64,000 nucleotides of DNA from Patescibacteria group bacterium (GCA_018062825.1 JAGORL010000002.1:65629-129628); one strand, 5' to 3'; counted from the stretch's first letter, positions 759-64,000 are shown. The notes: generated by a model not told the origin, from the letters alone. Numbers and translations are program-made.

Positions 759-2477
759 TTATTTACAACCATTTATCGGATCGTACTCAATATCTGCCCA
801 CTGAAGTCCGGAAAGCTCTTGTGTAGGACTCCTGAAAAGCGCATAGACCCGCTTCATACCCGCCCCCTCAGTGAGCATCCAAGATCGTTCCTGTCTTGGC
901 GCAGTAAAGACGTCAAACCTCTCTCCAGTAAAACTCTCATCATGGCCAATAACAACCCGATTAGCGTTATATCCCTCAAGCTGCAAGGATACGTCACGTG
1001 ACGTGGTACAAGAAGCGCCCTCATTGATCATGATATCTACACTGCGTGGGAAGATGTAATTACGACCACCACGCGCAGCAGAAATCTTGCGCAAGAATAG
1101 GATCCATACTGCACCGCGTGTTGCGCCACCGTCATCGTCACCACGCGCAGAAACCATAATGTCCGGCTCGCCATCGCCATTCAAATCACCCAAAGAAGCA
1201 ACACCAGTTGAACCAAACACATCAACGTTATCAAGTGGACCTGCAAAATTACCCTCTGTTGAGCTCACTTTTTTATAACTCTGAACTGAACCGTCCGTAT
1301 TCAAATAGATCGTGTAATAAGCGCCACGCGCATCTCCACCATCATCATCACTATTCACCCCAACAAGAAGATCCGAAATGCCGTCTGCATTAAAATCCGT
1401 TGAGCCATCAACAAATGTACCAAAGCCATCATTTGCATCAAGAAGCCCGGTGAAATTAGGGGTTGTACCTGAAACCTTAGCTTCACTCACAACCGTGCCG
1501 TCAGAGTTCATGAATAAAATGTAAACCGCGCCGGCAAAGCTAGCTCCATCACTATCAGAAAACGCACCCACCACAATGTCATCAAAACCATTACCATCAA
1601 GATCCGCAATGCGGGACACAGAACTACCAAAAGCATCTGAGTTATCAAGGGTTGCCAGAAAATTTCCAGAAAGATCGCTGATCTTATCAAAATCAGAAAC
1701 CGTACCATCCGTATTCAGGTGCAGTATCCATACAGCGCCGCGAGCGTTACCGCCATCATCATCCGAGTTAGCGCAAACAACCAAATCATCAAGACCATCA
1801 CTATTAAAATCATCTACCCGCGCCACACAATTGCCGAATTGATCACCATTATCTAAAACCCCTAAAAATCCCCCCGCGGTATCGCTGATTTTTTGTTCAT
1901 CCTTCACGGTGCCGTCCGCATTTAAAAACAGAATATAAACAGCTCCACGATTTGATCCACCGTCATCATTACCGCGCTCACCAACTGCAATATCAGGGAT
2001 ATCATCCCCATCAAGATCCCCTAACGCTGCAACAGATACTCCAAAAGCATCGGCGCTATCGATCGGACCAGTAAAACCGCCCACGGTAGCACTAATCTTC
2101 TGAACATCCTTCACCGTGCCATTCGTGTTAAGAAAAAGAATATAAACAGCTCCAAAATCAGTTCCACCGTCGTCATCGGCAAATGCGCCAACAACAACAT
2201 CAGTAACGCCGTCGCCATCAACGTCACCAATATTTGCAACACCGGAACCAAACTGATCACCATCACCCAAGTATCCAGAAAAACCACCTTCAGTATCGCT
2301 AATCTTTTGAAATGATCCAACCGTGCCGTCGGTACGAGAAATAACCTCGGTTGCCATGAGAAGAAAGAGGAGTGCAAGAATAACAGAACCAAACGCCAAA
2401 AACGGCATGGACTTAATCAGTGGTCGGTAAAAATGGTGCTTAGTAAAATGAACTTTACTCATATGTTTTACCTGCAA
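759..2477 (-). CDS. Membrane-anchored FG-GAP repeat beta-propeller protein (paralog 1)
   Basis: N-terminal hydrophobic anchor. About 7 repeats of the pattern FG.SVA.GDLDGDG.DD.VVGA..DDDGG...GAVYILFLN.DGTV, typical of FG-GAP/integrin-alpha-like repeats. C-terminal ~100 aa Cys-containing domain. Confidence 0.7.
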   Translation of the reverse strand: MQVKHMSKVHFTKHHFYRPLIKSMPFLAFGSVILALLFLLMATEVISRTDGTVGSFQKISDTEGGFSGYLGDGDQFGSGVANIGDVDGDGVTDVVVGAFADDDGGTDFGAVYILFLNTNGTVKDVQKISATVGGFTGPIDSADAFGVSVAALGDLDGDDIPDIAVGERGNDDGGSNRGAVYILFLNADGTVKDEQKISDTAGGFLGVLDNGDQFGNCVARVDDFNSDGLDDLVVCANSDDDGGNARGAVWILHLNTDGTVSDFDKISDLSGNFLATLDNSDAFGSSVSRIADLDGNGFDDIVVGAFSDSDGASFAGAVYILFMNSDGTVVSEAKVSGTTPNFTGLLDANDGFGTFVDGSTDFNADGISDLLVGVNSDDDGGDARGAYYTIYLNTDGSVQSYKKVSSTEGNFAGPLDNVDVFGSTGVASLGDLNGDGEPDIMVSARGDDDGGATRGAVWILFLRKISAARGGRNYIFPRSVDIMINEGASCTTSRDVSLQLEGYNANRVVIGHDESFTGERFDVFTAPRQERSWMLTEGAGMKRVYALFRSPTQELSGLQWADIEYDPINGCK

Positions 2478-4180
2478 CCGCCCACGGGATCATAAGTAAT
2501 CTCCGCTACCTGCAATCCGGAAAGCTCATGCGTTCGACTCTGAAAGAGAGCATACACCAACTTCGTACCCGCTCCTTCAGAAAGCACCCAGTCCCGCTGC
2601 TCAACCGGACCATCAAACTCCGTAAAGTCACGATTGATAAAGCCAGCATCTTGCCCAACAACAACACGAGTAGCGTCATATGCCTGAAGTGTCAGCGTTA
2701 CGTTACGAGTTGTCGTGCACAGCGCGCCATCATTGATCGATAACGCTACATTGCGCGGAAAAACATAATTACGACCACCAGAAACAAGTGCCTCCAGATA
2801 CATAATCCAAATAGCACCACGATCAACTCCACCGTCATCGTCTTGGAAGGCACTCACAACAACGTCCGGGGCACCATCACGATTAAAGTCACCAATAGAC
2901 GATAGACCGGCAACAGAAATCGAATCCTCATTATCAAGAACTCCCGTAAAATCACCCTCGGTATCGCTCACCTTCTGATAACGCTTCACCGAACCATCTG
3001 CGTTCAGAAAAATAATATAAAAAGCCCCACGATTAGAGCCACCATCGTCATCAAGCCAGGAACCAACAAGAAGCTCGGCAATGCCATCACCATCAAGATC
3101 CTCAATAGCAGCAATAGATGACCCAAAACGATCATCGTCACTCAAGGCTCCAGAGAAACCTGAAGTAAGATCAGAGATCTTAACCTCGCTCATGATCGAG
3201 CCGTCGCTGTCCATAAAAAGGAGATAAACAGCGCCACGAGCGTTACCGCCGTCGTCATCAAGAGAAACGCCAACAGCCCAATCGTCAACACCATTTCCAT
3301 CAACGTCAGGAATCACCGTAAAAGACTTTCCAAAACGATCACCATCATCAAGAAGCGTAGTTAAACCCGATGTTTGACTGACTTTATCAAAACCCGCAAC
3401 TGTACCATCAGTATTCATGTGCAGTATCCAAAAAGCACCACGATCCGTGCCACCATCGTCATCCTGACTAGCACACACCACAAGGTCATCAACAAGATCC
3501 CCATTGTAATCATCGATCCTCTCAACACACTCGCCGAAAAGTTCAAGATCATCAAGCACCCCGAGAAACCCGCCCTCCGTATCGCTAATACGCTGCTCAG
3601 CCTTTACCGTGCCATCGGTATTCAAAAATAAAATATAAAGCGCTCCTCTATTTGTGCCACCATCGTCATTACCACGTTCACCAACAGCGATATCAGGAAC
3701 GTCATCACCATCAAGATCTCCAATACCAGAAACATTAAAACCAAAATTATCAGCGCCATCAATCGGACCAGTAAAACCACCGGTCGTCATACTAATCTTC
3801 TGCGACGCACGAACCGTACCGTCACTATTCATAAAAAGAATGTAGACGGCACCAAAATTCACGCCACCATCGTCATCCTCCCAAGCCCCAACCACAAAAT
3901 CAGTAACTCCATCGTTATCAAGATCCCCAATAGCATCAACGCCTATACCAAACTCATCACCGTCATCAAGCACCTCTAAAAAGTTACCCTCTGTGTCGCT
4001 AATCTTTTGAAAATCACGAATCATGCCCGTACTACGAGAAGCCACCTGTGTTGCCATCAGGAGCGCTACCGAAGCAATAACAAGACCGAAAGCAAGAAAT
4101 GGTAAATGAGCTACAAAAGTCCAAAAAGACCCTTGAAGACCATGCTTGGCTCGAGATTTTCTCCCTCCTTTTCTTGGCAT
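2468..4180 (-). CDS. Membrane-anchored FG-GAP repeat beta-propeller protein (paralog 2)
   Basis: Same architecture and repeat pattern as 759..2477, and the same conserved C-terminal domain (…GGRNY.FPR.V...INdGA.CTT.R.V.L.L..Y.A.RVV.G.D…YDP..GC). Tandem duplicate. Confidence 0.7.
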   Translation of the reverse strand: MPRKGGRKSRAKHGLQGSFWTFVAHLPFLAFGLVIASVALLMATQVASRSTGMIRDFQKISDTEGNFLEVLDDGDEFGIGVDAIGDLDNDGVTDFVVGAWEDDDGGVNFGAVYILFMNSDGTVRASQKISMTTGGFTGPIDGADNFGFNVSGIGDLDGDDVPDIAVGERGNDDGGTNRGALYILFLNTDGTVKAEQRISDTEGGFLGVLDDLELFGECVERIDDYNGDLVDDLVVCASQDDDGGTDRGAFWILHMNTDGTVAGFDKVSQTSGLTTLLDDGDRFGKSFTVIPDVDGNGVDDWAVGVSLDDDGGNARGAVYLLFMDSDGSIMSEVKISDLTSGFSGALSDDDRFGSSIAAIEDLDGDGIAELLVGSWLDDDGGSNRGAFYIIFLNADGSVKRYQKVSDTEGDFTGVLDNEDSISVAGLSSIGDFNRDGAPDVVVSAFQDDDGGVDRGAIWIMYLEALVSGGRNYVFPRNVALSINDGALCTTTRNVTLTLQAYDATRVVVGQDAGFINRDFTEFDGPVEQRDWVLSEGAGTKLVYALFQSRTHELSGLQVAEITYDPVGGCR

Positions 4181-6264: not shown

Positions 6265-7529
6265 AGAGTATCTTCTTCAACAAGAGTTGATAAAAGATTC
6301 TTGCCTTTTTCCACCCAATCCGTCAAACCGTAATACTGTTTTTCTAAAATGTAATCGGAAACAATCGCAACCGCGGCGTCAGCATCTGTTTCTCGCAAGA
6401 TACGAACATACCGATCAAGATAGCGGAAATGCATCTCTTCTCGGAAGGCGTCATCTTCAACCTGACGGAAGAGCTGCTCATCCATGACGTGCATAACCGC
6501 TTCGTCATCCGTAAGCGAATCACGCAAATACGCCTCAAGGTCAGCCTGAATCTCTTCAACAGTACGCAAAGACAAATCTTCATCAGACAAACGCCCCTTC
6601 AAACGATCAACAAGTGAACCGACCTGCTCAGAGGCGTTATCCGGATCATAGTGAAGGACAACCGTTTCATGATACGGCTTCATGTCGTAGGTGATGCGCT
6701 CAGGGTGCCCCGCAATATCAGAAGCTACAAGAAGCGAGTACAGGGCCTTGGCAGTCGCAAAATCCATATCCGTATCCACGAACGAATACAAAAGATACAG
6801 AAGCGGTGTACTAAGCCCACCGTCACTTGTGATGCGAAGCGCGATATCTTTCATGAACACCGCTTGATTCTGACTGCGCTGCGGATCTCCAATCTGATAC
6901 GTCTGACGGTGGCGCAACCACTGCAACGTTTCCGTTGTTGGCAATTCTAGCGTGCGGAACATGCCAAGCGCTTCTGAAAAACCGATCGTAGCCACATAGT
7001 CAGCCCGAACCCCTACGATCTTTTCAATTTGAGAAATGCCGTAATCAAGACCGGCGTAAGCACATGCGTTAGCAATATAATATTCCGTCTCAGGATAATT
7101 ACCCGGTGGAATGTACGAATACGTACCACGAGGAACGGAAGTGATCTTCACCGAATGATCCGCAAGGTTAATGGTAACCATGTGAATAGCATCACAATGC
7201 TGACCCTCCCCTTCCTTACGCGAATCAATACCAAGAGTGAGAATATTAATCTCATCATCAGAGCCAAAAGGCACCTCAGGGCTAGCATCAAGAAGCGATG
7301 CTCGAGCTACAATCGCCTCACTCACAGCATCTCGAGCACGTGGCTCGGCCGCCTCTAGGCTCTCAGAAGACGCTGGTGCAAAAAGAACTGAAACACCGAA
7401 AACCACCCCGGCAATGACAAGGGCGGTAAAACCGGCATAAATAATCGTTTTCTTCATACGCCAAAAAACCTCCATAGACCTAATCGGGCGGTATGGTAAC
7501 GAAACCCTAACGCCAAGTAAAGTAACCAC
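6261..7529 (-). CDS. LytR-CpsA-Psr (LCP) family protein with C-terminal extension
   Basis: INILTLGIDSR...GQHCDAIHMVTIN...VKITSVPRGTY matches the LCP core (LLLGSDSR...SDTIML...ISIPRDT). N-terminal TM anchor. True start is probably the internal M of MKKTIIYAG near 7454. Confidence 0.6.
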   Translation of the reverse strand: MVTLLGVRVSLPYRPIRSMEVFWRMKKTIIYAGFTALVIAGVVFGVSVLFAPASSESLEAAEPRARDAVSEAIVARASLLDASPEVPFGSDDEINILTLGIDSRKEGEGQHCDAIHMVTINLADHSVKITSVPRGTYSYIPPGNYPETEYYIANACAYAGLDYGISQIEKIVGVRADYVATIGFSEALGMFRTLELPTTETLQWLRHRQTYQIGDPQRSQNQAVFMKDIALRITSDGGLSTPLLYLLYSFVDTDMDFATAKALYSLLVASDIAGHPERITYDMKPYHETVVLHYDPDNASEQVGSLVDRLKGRLSDEDLSLRTVEEIQADLEAYLRDSLTDDEAVMHVMDEQLFRQVEDDAFREEMHFRYLDRYVRILRETDADAAVAIVSDYILEKQYYGLTDWVEKGKNLLSTLVEEDTL

Positions 7530-7544
7530 TCCCTATCTCTTAAC

Positions 7545-10184: not shown

Positions 10185-10202
10185 AGGTTCACGTTCGAAA
10201 TA

Positions 10203-10240
10203 TAAAAGAGCACCGACTTCACGTCGCGTGCTCTTTTACT
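10203..10240. terminator. Rho-independent terminator between convergent genes
   Basis: agagcac-[cgac ttcac gtcg]-cgtgctct nested hairpin followed by TTTT. Confidence 0.6.
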
Positions 10241-10247
10241 TTCCGTT

Positions 10248-10330
10248 CCCCACTCCCTACTGCCTACGTTCCACCTTAAGCCCCAACGTAGTCCGGCTCT
10301 GCCGGACGAAGTGGGCCCTATCCCCTACCA
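10248..10330. repeat. Intergenic repeat element, copy A (CCACTCCCTACTGCCTAC ... CCCCAACGTAGTCCGGCTCTGCCGGACGAAGTGGGCC CTATCCCCTACC)
   Basis: Near-identical copies at 62708..62800 and 54785..54915. The core contains the perfect hairpin GTCCGGC-TCT-GCCGGAC. Confidence 0.8.
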
Positions 10331-10332
10331 CA

Positions 10333-10842
10333 TCACTCCTCCATCCCCCGCATCACCTCTGCCTCAAGCGCATCAATATCGCCATCGTCTTCCGGAGCGC
10401 GCCCACCATTCTTTTTCTCAACATGCTTATAGAGCGTCATCATCATGAGTTCCATGCGATCGATCTGACGGGCCGAATGCGTATCAATCTGAAAATCAAG
10501 CTCTTCACGAATGTCCGCCACTTTTGCCGCCCGATTCTGACTCATAAGAACAATGACCGCCAAACAAATAGCCTCTAAAGAAACAACGAGCGTTAACATG
10601 CCAAATGGATACGGATCAAAAATTTCTAAACCCGGCAAAAGACCGGTATTCCACAAAATCCAAACTGCAAAAAAACAGATGTTAAATACCAAAAACGACA
10701 ACGTGCCAAATGTGGTCGTTAACCAATCAGCAAAACGCTCTGAAAAAGACCGCTTCCCGCGCATTTCTTGAGCGAAAAGCCGAATGCTCTGCGCCGCCAT
10801 CGGTGCCACCGGCCTCTTTTTCCTCCTTCGTGGTTGTGCCAT
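10333..10842 (-). CDS. DUF1003-like membrane protein
   Basis: Two TM helices (LSFLVFNICFFAVWILWN, GMLTLVVSLEAICLAVIVLMSQN) followed by a coiled-coil QNRAAKVADIREELDFQIDTHSA.... Length and topology are typical of DUF1003. Confidence 0.45.
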   Translation of the reverse strand: MAQPRRRKKRPVAPMAAQSIRLFAQEMRGKRSFSERFADWLTTTFGTLSFLVFNICFFAVWILWNTGLLPGLEIFDPYPFGMLTLVVSLEAICLAVIVLMSQNRAAKVADIREELDFQIDTHSARQIDRMELMMMTLYKHVEKKNGGRAPEDDGDIDALEAEVMRGMEE

Positions 10843-10886: not shown

Positions 10887-12392
10887 ATGATTCATCGCTT
10901 TATTTTGCGAACAACAGCGATCGCGAGTGCATTCAGCATCGCCTTTGCCCCGGTTGCTGGCTTTGCCAAAGAACCATTCACCACACCAATTTTAATCGCC
11001 CTTGATGGCGTTGAAAGCGGCACAATCACAACACAGTTAAGCTTTGCACTTGAACCGCTTGAAAGCGACGTAAAACCACTAATGGGTCTTGAGGACAGCT
11101 CGCTCTTTGCGGCTGCCGGTCTCTTTCAGCATGCCGAGCACTTAATAGCAGATGAAGTCGCTACGAACATGATGGTCACCGAGGATAACTGGACCTGGGA
11201 AGAAGACGACAGCTGGGACACCACTGATTGGTCAGAGGATTCGTGGAGTGATGATGAGTATCTCTACACCTACGAGGAGCCAAGCATTGCTGAGGAGCTT
11301 GCAAACACCAACCTCACCCTCACCACTAAGCAAAATTTCAACATCAATGCGAGTGATTATAGCGACGGTTCATTTGATGTAAGCTTAGAGTTTCTTGATG
11401 AACAGATCGCGCTCTCCGGCAAAACCGCTACTCGTAACGGCGCTAGCTATCTTCAGTTCACAAACATTGCCGTTCCTGAGGTAACATCAGCCGATCTCCC
11501 AGAAGGCGCAATTGGCGATTGGTTTGAAGTAACCATGCCCGAGCAGACCAAAACCATCTTTGAACCAGAGGATGGGCAAAGCTCTGATCTTCTTGAAGAT
11601 CCAACTCAGCTACTCGCTGGTCTAAATGATATTCCAACACAAGTAACAGACATCGTTGATGATCTTGCTCGCATTAACGCCCTGCAGGTCACAAGCAAAC
11701 ACCGCACAATCGTCAGTGGCAAACGCGTTACCGTGTACAACCTAAACGTTGACGGCGAGAAGGCAGCCGCAATAGCACCCGAGGATCTAGCGGAAATCGC
11801 ACCTCTTTTAGGCAACACCACGCTCAAACTCACCGTTCAGGAGAACACCAACATTCCAATCGCCTTTGACTTCGCGATTCGCGTCGCTCTCTCGGATATT
11901 GATGAAGTGAGTACTGGTCAACAAGTAGCGCTTCGTGGCTCGATAACGCTCACCGATATCGGTCGCAACTTCAGCTACGAAACCATAAAAGACGCTCGTC
12001 CGCTTTCAGACCTTGATGAGAGCACAGTTGTTGCCGAGCCGCTTGTTGAGCAGCAGTACGCCTACGTCAGCGATCTGCAATGGGCACTTGATACCTACTA
12101 CTATCACTACGGCTACTACCCAGAGACACTTAGCGACCTTCTCATCTCTCCAATCCCAACCGACTGGTCAGAAGACATGATCGTGTACTTTGTACCAAAT
12201 GATGTTTTCACCAACCAACCATATGAGTACGAAAAACTGGAGGAAGACTTCGCGCTCACGTACTGGGTAGAGCTCCAGGATGACTCCTCATGGTCCTACA
12301 CCTTCGTAGACGGTCAGAACACCGCCACCGCCTACACCATCTCCGAGGAAAGCGATGCCGCCTGGTACGACAGCTGGGAAGAATGGGAGTAA
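10887..12392 (+). CDS. Secreted acidic Trp/Asp-rich protein of unknown function
   Basis: Signal peptide MIHRFILRTTAIASAFSIAFAPVAGFA. Very acidic, with W-D/E-rich stretches (WTWEEDDSWDTTDWSEDSWSDDEY; AAWYDSWEEWE). C-terminal motif LQWALDTYYYHYGYYPETLSDLL resembles the pilin/pseudopilin ALE.Y..DNG.YP motif. Confidence 0.4.
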   Translation: MIHRFILRTTAIASAFSIAFAPVAGFAKEPFTTPILIALDGVESGTITTQLSFALEPLESDVKPLMGLEDSSLFAAAGLFQHAEHLIADEVATNMMVTEDNWTWEEDDSWDTTDWSEDSWSDDEYLYTYEEPSIAEELANTNLTLTTKQNFNINASDYSDGSFDVSLEFLDEQIALSGKTATRNGASYLQFTNIAVPEVTSADLPEGAIGDWFEVTMPEQTKTIFEPEDGQSSDLLEDPTQLLAGLNDIPTQVTDIVDDLARINALQVTSKHRTIVSGKRVTVYNLNVDGEKAAAIAPEDLAEIAPLLGNTTLKLTVQENTNIPIAFDFAIRVALSDIDEVSTGQQVALRGSITLTDIGRNFSYETIKDARPLSDLDESTVVAEPLVEQQYAYVSDLQWALDTYYYHYGYYPETLSDLLISPIPTDWSEDMIVYFVPNDVFTNQPYEYEKLEEDFALTYWVELQDDSSWSYTFVDGQNTATAYTISEESDAAWYDSWEEWE

Positions 12393-39521: not shown

Positions 39522-40628
39522 CTAAGAAGTACGCTTCTGCAAAAGACGCACAAGATCATGGCATGATGCTTGAATAGCAACTGGTAGCTCAGCAACTGCC
39601 TGATCAGCCTCACGTAAAAGAGCTTCAACACGCGCTTGAGCGGAAGCAACCGCTCCCGATGAAATAAAAACTTCAGGCAGGGCAACAAGAGCGGCAGCAT
39701 CACCCAAAAGCGCCAGCCGCAACATCTCACGAACCTTCTCATCCGCATGTAGAGCTAGATGCGCAGTTAACAGCGTCTGCTGCCCGTCGCGCACATCAGC
39801 AAGTACCGGCTTACCAAGCTCTTCAGCGCTACTGATTACATCAAATAAGTCATCCTGAATCTGAAATGCCACCCCAATCGGCTCAGCAAAGTTCCGCAGA
39901 GCTTTTTCAAGTTCAGAAGAAAAGGAACCAGAAAGTGCCAAGCCAAGAAGCATTGGTCGAACAAAGGAATAACTCGCAGTCTTCAAATATATCTTGCGCT
40001 CAAGAAGTGCGGCGTCATACTCATCACGCGTCATCGTATCAACATCAATCATCTGCCCAACAACTACTTCATCAATCATGGCAAACATCTGCTCGTGAAC
40101 AAGAGCTGGTTGAGTAGACCGTGATGCAGACCGCTGCACCATCTCAAGGGACCATGAAAAAAGTAAGTCGCCAAGAAGCATGGCATGACCACGAGCAACA
40201 TGAGGCAAATCACCACGTCGATCCCCAGAAGTCAGGCGATCAAAAGCTACGGATTCAATCGTGGGAACGCCTCTGCGCACCGGTGCCTTATCAATGATGT
40301 CATCATGAACTAAACAAAAAACATGGAAGAGCTCTAGGCCCACTCCAAGCTCCATCACTCCCTGTTCATCTACACCAGAACCGGCAGCATATCCGATCTG
40401 CGCCAAATACGGACGCAAACGCTTCCCACCGGCAAGCAAAGGCGGCAAACCTGCAACAATACTTGCGAGGAAATTATCCTGCGCTAGCGCTGAAAAACGC
40501 TGTAAACGCTCTTCTGTCACCTTTGCTAAATAAGGCTCAAAAGCCACCCGAAATGACGCCATGTCCATAAGATAGACGCAGTGTAACGGGTTTTTGGACA
40601 TGCGAAAAGAGCACAGACCGTGGGTCAT
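39522..40628 (-). CDS. crtE: Polyprenyl synthetase (geranylgeranyl diphosphate synthase-like)
   Basis: First Asp-rich motif LVHDDIIDKA and second QIQDDLFDV of trans-prenyltransferases. Likely start at an internal Met (MDMASF, about 40565). Confidence 0.7.
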   Translation of the reverse strand: MTHGLCSFRMSKNPLHCVYLMDMASFRVAFEPYLAKVTEERLQRFSALAQDNFLASIVAGLPPLLAGGKRLRPYLAQIGYAAGSGVDEQGVMELGVGLELFHVFCLVHDDIIDKAPVRRGVPTIESVAFDRLTSGDRRGDLPHVARGHAMLLGDLLFSWSLEMVQRSASRSTQPALVHEQMFAMIDEVVVGQMIDVDTMTRDEYDAALLERKIYLKTASYSFVRPMLLGLALSGSFSSELEKALRNFAEPIGVAFQIQDDLFDVISSAEELGKPVLADVRDGQQTLLTAHLALHADEKVREMLRLALLGDAAALVALPEVFISSGAVASAQARVEALLREADQAVAELPVAIQASCHDLVRLLQKRTS

Positions 40629-40664
40629 GTGCTCTTTTATTATCCCTACCCCGCCCTAATGCGC

Positions 40665-41306
40665 CTACCTAATGTATTCAACCACCTCAGCGGCTGTACG
40701 GCGCACCTTCGGACGTGTAGCTGCTGGATCGTCACCACGATAGCCAAAGGCAATCATAGTGGCTACAGATAAGTTCTTCTCGTGAAGACCAAGAACTTCA
40801 TCAACACCCTTTGGATCAAATCCCTCCATTGGACCCGCATCAACGCCAAGAAGTGCCGCTGTTTCAAGCATCATGCCAAGCGGGATATAGCACTGCATCT
40901 TCGCCCAAAGCGGCAAGTATGCATCATCCTTAGAACCGATCGTTCCCTCGGCAATCTTTTTCCAAGCTTCAAGGGACTCCATACTAACGCCCTGCTGCGC
41001 AGCTGTACGATCGATGAGCTCAGAAACGCCATGCTCGCGCATATCAGTACGAGCCGCGATAACTACCAACTTTGGTGCATCGACAATTTTCGGTTGACCA
41101 TATCCAACCGCCTGCAAACGCTTACGAACTTCTGGATTCTCAATGACTAAAAATTTCCATGGTTCAAATCCAGTTGAACTTGGAGACAAGCGGCCAGCTT
41201 CTAAAATCGCCTGAAATAAATCTTCGGCTAACGGTTTTGCTGGATCAAAGATCTTTACCGCATAACGCCATGCTAACGCCTGCTGAATGTCGTTTATTGT
41301 AGTCAT
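40665..41306 (-). CDS. Nitroreductase family protein
   Basis: WRYAVKIFDPAKPL...RLSPSSTGFEPWKFLVIENPEVRKRL matches the nitroreductase fold. Confidence 0.65.
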   Translation of the reverse strand: MTTINDIQQALAWRYAVKIFDPAKPLAEDLFQAILEAGRLSPSSTGFEPWKFLVIENPEVRKRLQAVGYGQPKIVDAPKLVVIAARTDMREHGVSELIDRTAAQQGVSMESLEAWKKIAEGTIGSKDDAYLPLWAKMQCYIPLGMMLETAALLGVDAGPMEGFDPKGVDEVLGLHEKNLSVATMIAFGYRGDDPAATRPKVRRTAAEVVEYIR

Positions 41307-54784: not shown

Positions 54785-54915
54785 CTACTCCCTATTCTCC
54801 AGCCCCAACGTAGTCCGGTCCTACCGGACGAAGTGGGCCTATCATCAATCCCAACGAAGTCCGCAAGGACGAAGTGGGCCTATACCCTATAACCTATTCC
54901 CTAATCCCTAATCTC
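54785..54915. repeat. Intergenic repeat element, copy B (tandem: one full core plus one degenerate core, with a CCCTA-rich tail including CCCTAATCCCTAA)
   Basis: ctactccctattctcc-agCCCCAACGTAGTCCGGTCCTACCGGACGAAGTGGGCCTATcatcaatCCCAACGAAGTCCGCAAGGACGAAGTGGGCCTATaccctataacctattccctaatccctaatctcc. Confidence 0.8.
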
Positions 54916-54936
54916 CTGCTACCATACCCACCGCCC

Positions 54937-55012
54937 GCCGAAATAGCTCAGCTGGTAGAGCAACGGTTTTGTAAACCGTAGGTCACGGGTTCGAATCCCG
55001 TTTTCGGCTCCA
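54937..55012 (+). tRNA. tRNA-Thr (anticodon TGT)
   Basis: GCCGAAA-TA-GCTC-AGCTGGTA-GAGC-A-ACGGT-TTTGTAA-ACCGT-AGGTC-ACGGG-TTCGAAT-CCCGT-TTTCGGC-T-CCA. Confidence 0.85.
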
Positions 55013-55160: not shown

Positions 55161-55374
55161 ACATAAAGTCTGCTACATTTGTCCAGCTTCGGCGTCGTTC
55201 ATTCCGTCGGCCTCTATGTACTTATCCAGTACATTTCGGCCTTACTCATTCACTCCTTGAATCTGACCAAATGTAGCAAACTTTATCGTAAACATTTGAG
55301 AGTAGCGCTCACCAGCAAAACGCATAGTAACGGAAACCTTCTAAAATTTGCTTTAGCAGGAAACCATGTAACGT

Positions 55375-55498
55375 CGGATACCTTCTAAAATGTTTCAGGG
55401 CTAGGAGTGAAGGTGCGCAGGATGAGGCGTACCGGAGGTACGACGAATCCGAGCACACCGAAACGACAACGCCCTGGAATATTTTAGAAGGTATCCGG
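55375..55498. repeat. Long inverted repeat (about 27-bp arms, about 69-bp spacer) directly abutting the 3' end of tRNA-Tyr, with a third partial copy of the arm motif at 55332..55351
   Basis: Left arm cggataccttctaaaatgtttcagggc (55375..55401). Right arm gccctggaatattttagaaggtatccgg (55471..55498). ACCTTCTAAAAT occurs three times. Confidence 0.7.
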
Positions 55499-62707: not shown

Positions 62708-62800
62708 CCACTCCCTACTGCCTACTTTCTCTGGCCCCAACGTAGTCCGGCTCTGCCGGACGAAGTGGGCCTATTCCCTATCCCCCATTCCCTATTTCCT
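62708..62800. repeat. Intergenic repeat element, copy C
   Basis: CCACTCCCTACTGCCTACtttctctggCCCCAACGTAGTCCGGCTCTGCCGGACGAAGTGGGCCTATtccctatcccccattccctatttcctac is almost identical to copy A. Confidence 0.8.
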
Positions 62801-62842
62801 ACATTTTACGCTAAAATTAGCCAAATAATCATTAAAATTCAT

Positions 62843-62871
62843 TGACAAAACGCCTATTCTATGGTATAAAT
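62843..62871 (+). promoter_or_regulatory. Near-consensus sigma-70 promoter (-35 TTGACA, 17-bp spacer, -10 TATAAA) followed by a GGAG ribosome-binding site upstream of the high-GC ORF
   Basis: cattgacaaaacgcctattctatggtataaatac. RBS ...cacaggagaacaccATG. Confidence 0.55.
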
Positions 62872-62940: not shown

Positions 62941-64000
62941 ATGTTCCTCTTCGAGACCGACCACGTCCGCGACCTCCACTTCACCGAGGGCGGCAACGTC
63001 GTCGGTGACGCGAACGGCTTCACCGCGGACGACTACCCGACCGAGAACCTCTACGAGGCGGCCGAGTGGGTCGCCCCGAAGTACTGGATCAACGTCGACG
63101 ACCTCGCGGCCTCCCCGGCCGACGTCGACGACAGCGACGAGTACGACACCGACTTCGACTTCACCAAGGACGAGGCCGGTGAGCCCGTCCTCGCGTTCCG
63201 CCACGCCACCCGGCGCATGGTGGTCGTGACCTTCGAGACCTCGTCGTTCATCTGGCCGTCGCAGGACGACGAGCCCACGAACTCCGAGATCGCGGCCTCC
63301 CCGGCCGAGGTCAACAACGACGACACCGAGCTCGACGAGGCCATCCCGGCCGACGAGCAGGACGTCGAGATCGAGGACGACGAGTTGCCCCACCCCGAGC
63401 AGTCCGCCGTGACCCGCAAGGTCATGGAGGGCCGCGAGGGCGAGCGTCGCCTCCTCAAGGCAAGCCACAAGCACGACGGCAAGGGTGAGAAGCTCCACAA
63501 GAGCCGCATCGCCCTGCGCCGCCACGGCAAGACGCTCCGGCACCAGCTGAACGAGCTCGCCGCACAGGCCATCCCGGCCGAAGTGGTGATGCGCCCCGTC
63601 CTGCACTGGACGGAAGCGGAGCTCGCGCAGATCCTCGTCGTCGAGTCCGACCTCGAGGCCGAAGCGTGGAACGCCGAGCTCGAGTACCTCGAGTGGTGGC
63701 ACAACCACTGCTACGACTACGCCGAGCCCGAGCCCACCGCCCGCGAGCGCTACGAAGCGCAGCTGCGGGAAGAGCGCCAGGCCTGGGAGGACAAGATGTC
63801 CGCCTACGGCGACGAGCTCATGCGCTACGAGGCCACCCACGGACACTTGCCGTGGGAGGCCGACGAGCATTGGACCGAGCTCGAGCTCGCCCTGGACATG
63901 CGCCTCGACGACGACATCGTCCTGCCGGAAGCGCAGTGCTCCGGCATCTGCGTCCGCGCCACCATGAGCGCGGACGAATACAGCTACTACACGCTCTTCA
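62941..64000 (+). CDS. Partial (continues beyond window end) highly acidic protein of unknown function, encoded in about 65-70% GC sequence with actinomycete-like G/C-ending codons
   Basis: Manual translation from ATG 62941 is open to the window end with no stop: MFLFETDHVRDLHFTEGGNVVGDANGFTADDYPTENLYEAAEWVAPKYWINVDDLAASPADVDDSDEYDTDFDFTKDEAGEPVLAFRHATRRMVVVTFETSSFIWPSQDDEPTNSEIAASPAEVNNDDTELDEAIPADEQDVEIEDDELPHPEQSAVTRKVMEGREGERRLLKASHKHDGKGEKLHKSRIALRRHGKTLRHQLNELAAQAIPAEVVMRPVLHWTEAELAQILVVESDLEAEAWNAELEYLEWWHNHCYDYAEPEPTARERYEAQLREERQAWEDKMSAYGDELMRYEATHGHLPWEADEHWTELELALDMRLDDDIVLPEAQCSGICVRATMSADEYSYYTLF. Third codon positions are almost all G/C. Not in the ORF track because there is no stop. 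Confidence 0.55.
   Translation, partial: MFLFETDHVRDLHFTEGGNVVGDANGFTADDYPTENLYEAAEWVAPKYWINVDDLAASPADVDDSDEYDTDFDFTKDEAGEPVLAFRHATRRMVVVTFETSSFIWPSQDDEPTNSEIAASPAEVNNDDTELDEAIPADEQDVEIEDDELPHPEQSAVTRKVMEGREGERRLLKASHKHDGKGEKLHKSRIALRRHGKTLRHQLNELAAQAIPAEVVMRPVLHWTEAELAQILVVESDLEAEAWNAELEYLEWWHNHCYDYAEPEPTARERYEAQLREERQAWEDKMSAYGDELMRYEATHGHLPWEADEHWTELELALDMRLDDDIVLPEAQCSGICVRATMSADEYSYYTLF

What the first reader, a model, noticed from the sequence alone, without database searches (positions are those of the whole stretch)
10248..10330. Novel about 80-bp composite intergenic repeat element with a hairpin core, present at three loci (four cores)
The left flank CCACTCCCTACTGCCTAC, the core CCCCAACGTAGTCCGGCTCTGCCGGACGAAGTGGGCC and a CCTATCCCCTA-type pyrimidine tail recur almost identically at 10248..10330 and 62708..62800. 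A tandem/degenerate version is at 54785..54915. The core holds a perfect hairpin (GTCCGGC-TCT-GCCGGAC) within a longer imperfect dyad. The tails are built from CCCTAT/CCCTAA/CCCTAC units, including CCCTAATCCCTAA. All copies are intergenic and at gene ends or starts: after convergent genes, upstream of the atp operon next to tRNAs, and at the GC discontinuity. A short echo CCACTCCCTAT also occurs at about 7529..7539. This looks like a REP/MITE-like mobile or regulatory RNA element. I do not recognise the sequence as a described family.
Basis: seen in the sequence. Interest (0 to 1): 0.65.

Follow-up and report, generated by a model that had tools for sequence, protein, structure and literature searches.

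The report
REP-like hairpin repeat in a Patescibacteria genome
The repeat is real and is best read as a small selfish palindromic DNA element of the known REP type, not previously described in the tiny-celled Patescibacteria, where relatives of it also sit inside protein genes, in an RNase P RNA gene and beside tRNA genes.

Summary
Four hairpin cores (CCCAACG[T/A]AG-stem-loop-stem-CGAAGTGGG) lie at three intergenic loci. None is expected by chance. A fifth lies about 190 bp past the window end. The source is a Patescibacteria MAG (GCA_020049755.1).

The "80-bp composite" has two separable parts. Close relatives keep the CCCTAY pyrimidine tract at the same sites but lack the core, or lack both. 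About 70 kb from relatives holds no canonical core, against five in 73 kb here. Three short-read contigs break inside the core. So the core is a recently expanded insertion.

Exact-pattern scans found about 20 related hairpins elsewhere, one exact-pattern copy per locus. Those that could be placed are Patescibacteria. They sit next to tRNA/tmRNA 3' ends, inside an RNase P RNA gene, and as clean in-frame insertions in PurA, QueA and RecR. Both stems covary. All window copies face the same chromosome strand regardless of gene direction.

GTAG at the foot of a short GC palindrome is the signature of GTAG-tagged REP elements. No Rfam family matches. No Y1/RAYT transposase was seen in the sequence available, so the way it moves is inferred. 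Verdict: a new member of a known kind, of moderate interest.

The parts
10250..10267 (+). Left arm of copy 1 (CCACTCCCTACTGCCTAC), identical to the arm of copy 3
10280..10317 (+). Core 1: GCCCCAA-CGTAG-TCCGGC-TCT-GCCGGA-CGAAG-TGGGCC. A hairpin with a 3x3 GTA/GAA internal loop and an outer CCC/GGG stem.
   Evidence: (60 bits)
10316..10349 (+). G-free pyrimidine tail (CCCTATCCCCTACC...). Its 3' part overlaps the end of the DUF1003 gene on the minus strand (stop at 10333).
54785..54801 (+). Left arm of copy 2 (CTACTCCCTATTCTCCA)
54802..54839 (+). Core 2a. The inner stem carries the compensatory change GGC/GCC to GGT/ACC.
   Evidence: (59.2 bits)
54850..54880 (+). Core 2b: short head-to-tail copy, CCCAA-CGAAG-TCC-GCAA-GGA-CGAAG-TGGGCC
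   Evidence: (43.4 bits)
54879..54917 (+). G-free pyrimidine tail of CCCTAT/CCCTAA units. It ends 19 nt before tRNA-Thr(tgt) at 54937-55012.
62708..62725 (+). Left arm of copy 3 (CCACTCCCTACTGCCTAC)
62734..62771 (+). Core 3, identical to core 1. It belongs to a 56-nt block that is absent from the orthologous site of a close relative.
   Evidence: (62.5 bits)
62770..62809 (+). G-free pyrimidine tail, conserved in the relative that lacks the core. It is followed by TTGACA-17-TATAAA and the high-GC gene.
7526..7536 (+). Solo left-arm motif CCACTCCCTAT without a core, next to a bidirectional terminator-like hairpin
40641..40673 (+). Solo CCCTAY-type tract without a core, directly after a terminator hairpin whose stem (AAAAGAGCAC/GTGCTCTTTT) is the same as the one before copy 1
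   Evidence: (I3)
10202..10237 (.). Bidirectional terminator-like hairpin between SPFH and copy 1. This is context and is conserved in relatives that lack the element.
   Evidence: (I3)

Best explanation
The hairpin core is a non-autonomous, selfish palindromic DNA element of the REP type. It has a GTAG (sometimes GAAG) tetranucleotide at the 5' foot of a short GC-rich palindrome. It also has a matching CGAAG on the 3' side and an outer CCC(A)A/TGGG stem.

Shown: it has recently multiplied in this Patescibacteria lineage by inserting into pre-existing C-rich CCCTAY intergenic tracts.

Inferred: by analogy with REP/RAYT and IS200/IS605 systems, it moves as a folded single DNA strand handled by an HUH tyrosine (Y1) nuclease/transposase encoded elsewhere in the genome. 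That would explain why all copies face the same chromosome strand. CTAC in the CCCTAC units is the complement of the GTAG guide, so these tracts may be preferred targets.

The window copies probably have no dedicated cellular function. At most they add a stable stem-loop to neighbouring transcripts, for example the DUF1003 3' UTR. Older relatives of the element have been tolerated or co-opted as surface loops in proteins, as a peripheral helix of RNase P RNA, and as the stem of terminator-like hairpins after tRNA genes.
For: SHOWN
1. Real multi-copy repeat. There are five cores in 73 kb of the source contig. Cores 1 and 3 and their 18-nt left arms are identical although 52 kb apart. Logan contigs L054, L055 and L061 end inside the core.
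2. Presence/absence among close relatives.
- L051 (SPFH 96% identical) has neither tract nor core at the copy-1 site.
- L058 (93%) has the tract but no core.
- L062 (HolB 89%) lacks a 56-nt block holding core 3 but keeps the tail. At the fifth-copy site it has a different, degenerate hairpin.
- With the model's filters off, no core was found in 28.8 kb of that relative or in 41 kb of more distant relatives.
3. Hairpin maintained. In 20 aligned copies 88.9% of cells pair, against about 40% when partners are slid. There are 33 double-sided changes, and 0 of 500 shuffles reach the observed values. Within the genome the inner stem runs C-G (cores 1 and 3), C.A (fifth copy), T-A (core 2a).
4. REP anatomy. 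GTAG lies directly 5' of a 6-7 bp GC stem with a 3-nt loop, and one locus holds a head-to-tail dimer. This fits the published definitions in PMC3733652 and PMC6006769.
5. Mixed contexts typical of selfish palindromes.
- Clean in-frame insertions of 14 aa in PurA, about 16 aa across two gaps in RecR, and 12 aa in QueA, measured against solved homologues.
- Related hairpins at the same PurA site in other Roizmanbacteria-like genomes.
- A copy inside an RNase P RNA gene at the P13/P14 position.
- Copies 0-66 nt after tRNA/tmRNA 3' ends.
6. Strand rule. All cores and solo tracts in the window are on the + strand whatever the neighbouring gene direction. The GTAG strand is the C-rich strand in 15 of 17 loci.

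INFERRED
The single-strand, Y1-transposase mechanism and the CTAC targeting.
Against: - No Y1_Tnp/RAYT gene, and no other transposase or integrase, was found in the gene tables and Pfam scans covering most of the ~73 kb of source genome available, nor among 20 ORFs flanking hairpins in other genomes. The rest of the genomes could not be read.
- GTAG here is not a free terminal tag. It sits in an internal loop enclosed by an outer stem, opposite a conserved CGAAG. That is not the usual REP layout.
- The 11-12 nt on each side of the variable stem are conserved across distant Patescibacteria. That is more than REP families usually share between lineages, although the search pattern imposed much of this.
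- Outside this lineage each locus returned by the scans carried only one exact-pattern match.
- No target-site duplication or exact element ends could be defined.
- The GTAG strand lies on the C-rich strand. For IS608-like elements the active strand is expected on the lagging-strand template, which is G-rich. GC skew is confounded with gene direction here.
Confidence: 0.6

Rival explanations
1. It is a structured RNA element, either a cis-acting stabiliser, attenuator or terminator module or a protein-binding site. Its conserved 3x3 purine loop (GUA/GAA, loop-E or tandem sheared G.A type) would be read on the + strand transcript.
For: - Both stems covary.
- The + strand RNA folds better against shuffles (z -2.8 to -3.7) than the minus strand (z -0.6 to -1.7).
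- The internal loop is purine-rich only on the GTAG strand.
- In L003/L013, L024 and L033 the hairpin on that strand is followed by a T-run. In L003 it directly follows a tRNA-Leu gene.
- In the RNase P RNA of L044 a CGAAG/CGAAG hairpin with a GAAA loop lies in the sense orientation at the P14 position.
Against: - No consistent gene context.
- Window copies have no U-tract and were not called as terminators.
- Copies 2 and 3 lie between divergent genes. Copy 2 lies upstream of the predicted atp promoter.
- Orientation follows the chromosome strand, not transcription.
- In four of four protein genes, in RNase P RNA, and in four of five tRNA/tmRNA flanks, the transcript would carry the pyrimidine-loop complement.
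- Close relatives lack it at the same sites.
- A 99%-identical strain has substitutions in the conserved GTAG and GTGGG.
- No Rfam match.
Confidence: 0.15
2. The copies are recombination sites (integron attC-like or similar) that bracket acquired gene cassettes. The 68%-GC gene at 62.9-64.1 kb lies between two direct copies.
For: - Copy 3 and the fifth copy flank the high-GC gene in the same orientation.
- attC sites are imperfect hairpins recombined as single strands.
- CCCCAAC resembles the RYYYAAC inverse core.
Against: - The relative L062 has the same high-GC gene but lacks core 3, so gene acquisition and core insertion were separate events.
- There is no GTTRRRY partner.
- At 31-38 nt the cores are shorter than attC sites, which I recall as about 55-140 nt.
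- No integrase gene was found in the annotated parts of the 73 kb.
- Each high-GC gene has its own promoter-like site and terminator.
- The other copies flank ordinary core genes.
Confidence: 0.03
3. The functional unit is the C-rich CCCTAY tract, for example a Rho loading site or a binding array for a nucleoid or transcription protein. On this view the hairpin is an incidental passenger.
For: - Tracts are older than the cores and are conserved in relatives.
- They are long and G-free. They sit just after terminator hairpins at 10238, 40641 and the fifth copy, or just before promoter-like sites at 62843 and the fifth copy.
Against: - This does not explain the hairpin, which is the repeated and widely distributed part.
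- L051 lacks the tract entirely at the copy-1 site.
- Tract orientation is fixed to the + strand even where it would not be transcribed in the C-rich sense.
- The presence of Rho in this genome was not tested.
Confidence: 0.1

Closest known systems
GTAG-tagged REP elements / REPINs mobilised by RAYT (TnpA-REP) tyrosine transposases (Di Nocera et al. 2013, PMC3733652; Quentin et al. 2018, PMC6006769)
   Same: - A 20-40 nt GC-rich palindrome with GTAG, or a degenerate form, at the 5' foot of the stem.
- A 6-7 bp stem with a 3-nt loop.
- Singles and a head-to-tail dimer.
- Mostly intergenic, with occasional in-frame intragenic copies.
- Lineage-specific copy number.
- Compensatory stem variants within a family.
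   Different: - GTAG is enclosed in an internal loop by an outer CCC(A)A/TGGG stem and faces a conserved CGAAG.
- The flanks of the stem are conserved across distant Patescibacteria.
- No RAYT gene was found in the sequence available.
- The host phylum is not among those reported.
- The copies are embedded in CCCTAY pyrimidine tracts.
Rickettsia palindromic elements (RPE; RPE-4 and RPE-6 are counted as CGTC REPs in PMC3733652)
   Same: Palindromic selfish DNA tolerated as in-frame insertions in conserved protein genes. From my own recollection, not checked here, RPEs also occur inside stable RNA genes. Both occur in small, reduced genomes.
   Different: - No sequence relation.
- By my recollection RPE-1 is about 100-150 bp, against 31-45 nt here.
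- The tag differs (CGTC against GTAG).
- The host phylum differs.
IS200/IS605-derived hairpin MITEs (PATE-like elements) and the single-strand 'peel and paste' mechanism
   Same: A subterminal hairpin with a guide tetranucleotide 5' of its foot, strand-specific orientation, and no target duplication.
   Different: Those elements have two different ends (left and right hairpins) and a defined target tetranucleotide. Here there is a single hairpin, and no target or cleavage site could be defined.
Integron attC sites
   Same: Imperfect hairpins that are active as single strands and flank acquired genes in direct orientation.
   Different: No R'/R'' core pair, too short, no integrase, and the core is absent from a relative that has the flanked gene.
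d(GCGNAGC)-type GNA mini-hairpins and tandem sheared G.A loops (recalled from the literature, not tested)
   Same: ACGTAGT and ACGAAGT could each form a C-G-closed GNA triloop. Paired with each other they give a 3x3 loop closed by sheared G.A pairs in DNA or RNA.
   Different: That is a structural motif, not a genetic element. Its formation here is only predicted.

Membership tests
GTAG-tagged REP superfamily | Short (20-40 bp) GC-rich palindrome able to form a stem-loop | tested here: met
   The 7-bp stem GTCCGGC/GCCGGAC has a 3-nt loop. DNA and RNA folds give z about -3 to -4. Covariation is shown.
GTAG-tagged REP superfamily | GTAG (or GYAG, GTRG and similar) tetranucleotide at one end, 5' to the foot of the hairpin and unpaired | tested here: inconclusive
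   GTAG lies directly 5' of TCCGGC in cores 1, 2a, 3 and the fifth copy. Core 2b and several relatives have GAAG. It is unpaired but sits inside an internal loop closed by an outer stem, not at a free end.
GTAG-tagged REP superfamily | Many dispersed copies per genome, mostly intergenic | tested here: inconclusive
   There are five cores at four intergenic loci in 73 kb, and contigs break at the core. The rest of the genome could not be read.
GTAG-tagged REP superfamily | A RAYT / Y1 transposase gene in the same genome, typically flanked by REPs | not testable with these tools
   None was found in the parts of the ~73 kb that were annotated, nor in 20 ORFs next to hairpins elsewhere.
REPIN (inverted REP doublet) | Two REPs in inverted orientation forming a larger hairpin as the replicating unit | tested here: not met
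   Window copies are singles or one direct (head-to-tail) pair. An inverted pair is seen only inside the RNase P RNA gene of L044/L016.
Intrinsic (Rho-independent) terminator | GC-rich hairpin immediately followed by a U-tract | tested here: not met
   Window cores are followed by GGGCCTAT.... The scanner calls no terminator at the cores. The feature is met only in some relatives, L003/L013 and L024.
Integron attC site | R''(RYYYAAC)/R'(GTTRRRY) and L''/L' pairs, extrahelical bases, association with intI | tested here: not met
   There is no GTTRRRY, and no integrase was found in the annotated parts of the 73 kb. Core 3 is absent although the flanked gene is present in L062. By my recollection attC sites are about 57-141 nt, longer than these cores.
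Any Rfam 15 RNA family | Covariance-model match | tested here: not met
   There is no hit at gathering score in the window or in 18 related loci. At E up to 10, two of the three element loci gave only weak chance-level hits and none on the + strand cores.
Rickettsia palindromic elements | RPE consensus sequences, 100-150 bp in length by my recollection, Rickettsia hosts | not tested
   The element was not compared with RPE consensus sequences. The length (31-45 nt) and the Patescibacteria host differ. Only the in-frame-insertion behaviour is shared.

The most novel reading that the evidence does not exclude
The twin CGNAG/CGAAG hairpin may be the recognition module of a Patescibacteria-wide system that has not been described. 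Candidates are a single-strand DNA transposition system unrelated to RAYT, or a protein that binds the 3x3 G.A loop. The phylum would then have repeatedly co-opted it as a peripheral helix of RNase P RNA, as terminator-like stems after tRNA and tmRNA genes, and as surface loops in housekeeping enzymes. On this reading the element shapes CPR genes rather than merely littering intergenic DNA.
Probability: 0.15. Interest if true: 0.7.

Novelty: new member of a known kind. Interest (0 to 1): 0.42.

Why it matters
REP-type elements and their transposases are best known from Proteobacteria. I found no description of them in Patescibacteria, whose roughly 1-Mb genomes are usually regarded as streamlined.

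- A young, expanding hairpin family gives a marker for strain-level genome dynamics.
- It gives a likely cause of contig breaks in CPR assemblies.
- It offers an explanation for some odd short insertions in CPR proteins, and perhaps for part of the divergence of their RNase P RNAs (PMC8172020).

If the enzyme that moves it were identified, it would be a compact single-strand DNA recognition system from an unexplored phylum.

Tried and rejected
- **Rfam.** I scanned the whole window at gathering score, two of the three element loci at E up to 10, and 18 related loci. Only tRNAs, tmRNA and, later, an RNase P RNA were found.
- **K-turn and bulge-helix-bulge readings of the internal loop.** Checked by hand. 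The positions do not fit: there is no G.A/A.G tandem after a 3-nt bulge, and the two 3-nt segments face each other. Both readings were dropped.
- **Terminator reading.** The window cores have no T-run.
- **Cassette / attC reading.** Contradicted by relative L062.
- **Cross-phylum distribution.** The 'Gammaproteobacteria' label of L005 is not credible, because its PurA is nearest to Roizmanbacteria/Patescibacteria proteins. I therefore do not claim spread beyond Patescibacteria. L002 and L004 carry the same label and were not checked.
- **Viral contig scan.** Two hits, both without hairpin character and inside apparent coding sequence.
- **Chance hits in the scans.** About half of the metagenome and genome hits are chance matches in high-GC coding DNA and were excluded.
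- **Literature search for the core string.** Only unrelated primers and aptamers.
- **Cluster look-up of the PurA and QueA proteins.** Singletons, so no information.
- **Search for a transposase next to hairpins.** None of the Y1 type. One rve-type integrase gene lies in L043.
- **Walking further along the source contig.** Not possible with the look-up rules, so total copy number is unknown.

Full report

Yes. The three loci read as described.

- A degenerate core pattern matches three times on the + strand, at 10282-10317, 54804-54839 and 62736-62771. No match occurred in 100 shuffles.
- A shorter fourth core, CCCAACGAAGTCC-GCAA-GGACGAAGTGGGCC, follows the second one head-to-tail at 54850-54880.
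- Cores 1 and 3 are identical. So are their 18-nt left arms, CCACTCCCTACTGCCTAC, although the two copies are 52 kb apart.
- Each core is followed by a 34-40 nt run without a single G, built of CCCTAT/CCCTAC/CCCTAA units.
- The same sequence occurs in independent NCBI, JGI and Logan assemblies.

**2. Anatomy**

The core is GCCCC-AA-CGTAG-TCCGGC-TCT-GCCGGA-CGAAG-T-GGGCC.

- Folding as RNA or DNA gives a 7-bp inner stem, a 3x3 internal loop (GTA opposite GAA) closed by C-G pairs, and an outer stem.
- I aligned 20 copies: four from the window and 16 from other genomes. In these, 88.9% of cells form pairs, against about 40% when partners are slid. There are 33 double-sided changes, and no shuffle reaches the observed values.
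- Within this genome the inner stem shows the series C-G (cores 1 and 3), C.A (fifth copy), T-A (core 2a).
- ACGTAGT and ACGAAGT could also each form a GNA-triloop mini-hairpin. That would give a three-hairpin alternative in single-stranded DNA. This is my inference and was not tested.

**3. Context in the window**

- Copy 1 lies between the convergent SPFH (+) and DUF1003 (-) genes, just after a bidirectional terminator-like hairpin.
- Copy 2 lies between the atp operon (-) and tRNA-Thr (+), beyond the predicted atp promoter.
- Copy 3 lies between holB (-) and a 68%-GC gene.
- No core is followed by a T-run.
- A fifth copy lies about 190 bp beyond the window end, at window-equivalent 64186-64227. 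It follows the terminator of the high-GC gene and precedes a TTGAC-17-TATGAT promoter-like site.
- Core-less pieces also exist: a solo left arm at 7526-7536 and a solo tract at 40641-40673. Both lie next to terminator hairpins.
- Every core and tract is on the + strand, whatever the direction of the neighbouring genes. The + strand has negative GC skew over most of the window.

**4. Source and close relatives**

The window comes from contig JAHZTO010000049.1 of a Patescibacteria MAG, GCA_020049755.1.

- **Copy-1 site.** A relative with 96% identical SPFH (L051) has only the terminator hairpin. One with 93% (L058) has the terminator and a CCCTAY tract but no core.
- **Copy-3 site.** A relative with 89% identical HolB (L062) keeps the tail but lacks a 56-nt block, ACTGCCTACTTTCTCTGG plus the core. 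A 99% strain (L063) has the core with GTAG changed to GCAG and GTGGG changed to GTAGG.
- **Fifth-copy site.** L062 carries a different, degenerate hairpin.
- **Density.** With filters off, the covariance model finds no core in 28.8 kb of that relative or in 41 kb of more distant relatives. The source genome has five in 73 kb.
- **Assembly.** Three Logan contigs end inside the core, as expected for a multi-copy repeat.

Two conclusions follow. The tract is older than the core, and the core is a recent insertion that has expanded in this lineage.

**5. The wider family**

I scanned one genome per species and the metagenome contigs for the exact pattern (C)CAACGNAGTCC-N4-17-GGACGAAGTG(G). About 20 distinct true hairpins came back, one exact-pattern match per locus. 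The remaining hits were chance matches in high-GC coding DNA. The pattern itself imposes the conserved 20-22 nt. What it does not impose is that the inner segment forms a stem and that the outer flanks pair, and both covary.

Contexts found:
- Directly after the 3' end of tmRNA (L002), tRNA-Thr (L004), tRNA-Ser (L007), tRNA-Leu (L003) and tRNA-Ala (L043).
- Inside a bacterial class A RNase P RNA gene (L044, with L042, L016 and L032), where P13/P14 would be. The GTAG strand is antisense there, and a second CGAAG/CGAAG hairpin lies in the sense orientation. Diverged CPR RNase P RNAs with missing or extended helices are on record (PMC8172020).
- Inside protein genes. Alignment to solved homologues shows clean in-frame insertions of 14 aa in PurA (L005, against 4m0g), about 16 aa across two adjacent gaps in RecR (L035, against 3vdp) and 12 aa in QueA (L019, against 1vky). 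The inserted DNA is the hairpin.

PurA deserves a closer look. Of 120 PurA homologues, 18 carry different 8-43 aa insertions at that same position. The two I read as DNA are diverged hairpins of the same family in the same orientation.

The PurA homologues are Roizmanbacteria/Patescibacteria proteins. The 'Gammaproteobacteria' label of L005 is therefore wrong, and I do not claim a distribution beyond Patescibacteria.

The covariance model also finds weaker relatives in the same contigs. L007 has tandem CGAAG-stem-CGAAG hairpins. L026 has two more downstream of its tmRNA gene. L002 and L019 each have one.

The GTAG strand is the C-rich strand in 15 of 17 loci. Some of these loci are not independent, and skew is confounded with gene direction.

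**6. What it is and how it most likely works**

GTAG at the 5' foot of a short GC-rich palindrome, dispersed intergenic copies, dimers and occasional in-frame intragenic copies are the published description of GTAG-tagged REP elements (PMC3733652). The structural definition 'guide tetranucleotide 5' of a short hairpin' is the one used for REPs handled by Y1 (RAYT) transposases, which act on single-stranded DNA at the replication fork (PMC6006769).

The shown facts fit a selfish REP-type element:
- presence/absence polymorphism;
- lineage-specific expansion;
- identical distant copies;
- a maintained hairpin;
- mixed contexts;
- a fixed chromosome strand.

The mechanism is inferred: single-strand transposition by a Y1 enzyme. 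So is the idea that CCCTAC units, which contain the complement of GTAG, are the preferred target.

No Y1_Tnp, RAYT or integrase gene was seen in the gene tables and Pfam scans of the accessible ~73 kb, nor next to hairpins elsewhere. That cannot settle the matter for whole genomes.

**7. Rivals**

- **A functional RNA motif.** Covariation favours it. So do the better fold of the GTAG strand as RNA, its purine-rich loop and the T-runs after some relatives. Against it stand the lack of any consistent context and an orientation tied to the chromosome strand. Copies also lie antisense in genes, close relatives lack the element, a near-identical strain shows mutations in it, and no Rfam family matches.
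- **An attC-like cassette boundary.** Two direct copies around the high-GC gene suggest it. It is contradicted because L062 has that gene without core 3, and because the defining attC boxes and an integrase are missing.
- **The C-rich tract as a Rho or protein-binding site.** This remains possible for the tract, but it does not explain the hairpin.

**8. Novelty and caveats**

The kind, a REP-type palindromic element, is known. This family is new as far as Rfam and the searchable literature show.

It has an unusual layout. GTAG is enclosed by an outer stem and paired with a conserved CGAAG. It is embedded in CCCTAY tracts, and its host phylum is one where such elements have not been reported.

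Caveats:
- Copy number in the whole genome, the exact element ends and the mobilising enzyme are all unknown.
- The wide conservation of the flanks is partly an effect of the search pattern.

Noticed in passing
window 62941-64000 (gene runs to window-equivalent 64095; second gene at 64615-65358 = L059 7331-8074, minus strand of L059): Two adjacent genes with 61-68% GC and GC3 of 0.92 and 0.82 sit in a 48%-GC genome. They encode acidic proteins of 385 and 248 aa with no Pfam match, and each has its own promoter-like site. The public gene calls place them on the wrong strand. The first gene is also present in the relative L062, so it is not a very recent acquisition.
   Followed up: partly
window 55163-55286 and 55375-55497 (minus strand): Two near-perfect hairpins of about 125 nt lie between tRNA genes. 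One abuts the 5' side of tRNA-Thr(ggt). The other abuts the 3' end of tRNA-Tyr. RNA folding energies are -53.5 and -63 kcal/mol (z about -10). There is no Rfam match at E up to 1, and the sequences are unrelated to the CGTAG/CGAAG hairpin.
   Followed up: partly
window 10202-10237 and 40605-40640: Two bidirectional terminator-like hairpins 30 kb apart share the same stem (AAAAGAGCAC...GTGCTCTTTT) but have different loops. Each is followed by a CCCTAY tract. This may be a second small repeat family or a preferred terminator design (I3, 43, 51).
   Followed up: no
PurA homologues P0129-P0249, consensus position 216; L065 and L066: Position 216 of PurA in Roizmanbacteria-like Patescibacteria is a hot spot. 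18 of 120 homologues carry unrelated-looking 8-43 aa insertions there, for example SHAELVSASDF...RNKFGMTK and CHPERSEGSL...LRSAQND. These read like translated palindromic repeats. A second, weaker hot spot lies near position 353.
   Followed up: partly
L044 6214-6571 (also L042, L016, L032): This is a Patescibacteria RNase P RNA, just at the Rfam gathering score (100.1 bits). Its P13/P14 region consists of two hairpins of the CGNAG/CGAAG family in opposite orientations. Both have GNRA loops in the RNase P sense strand.
   Followed up: partly
L005 (CAZFQZ010000036.1); possibly also L002 and L004: This MAG is titled 'uncultured Gammaproteobacteria bacterium', but its PurA is closest to Candidatus Roizmanbacteria/Patescibacteria proteins at 68-74% identity. 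The taxonomic label is probably wrong.
   Followed up: partly
window 900-4100 (minus strand genes): There are long arrays of diverged 207-nt repeats (9-11 copies, 60-75% identical) inside two large FG-GAP-repeat protein genes.
   Followed up: no
L026 9336-9373, 11541-11574, 11708-11737 (all minus strand): A 34%-GC contig carries three hairpins of the family within 2.4 kb. Two of them lie just downstream of its tmRNA gene (11829-12224) in the sense orientation. The family is therefore multi-copy in at least one other genome.
   Followed up: no
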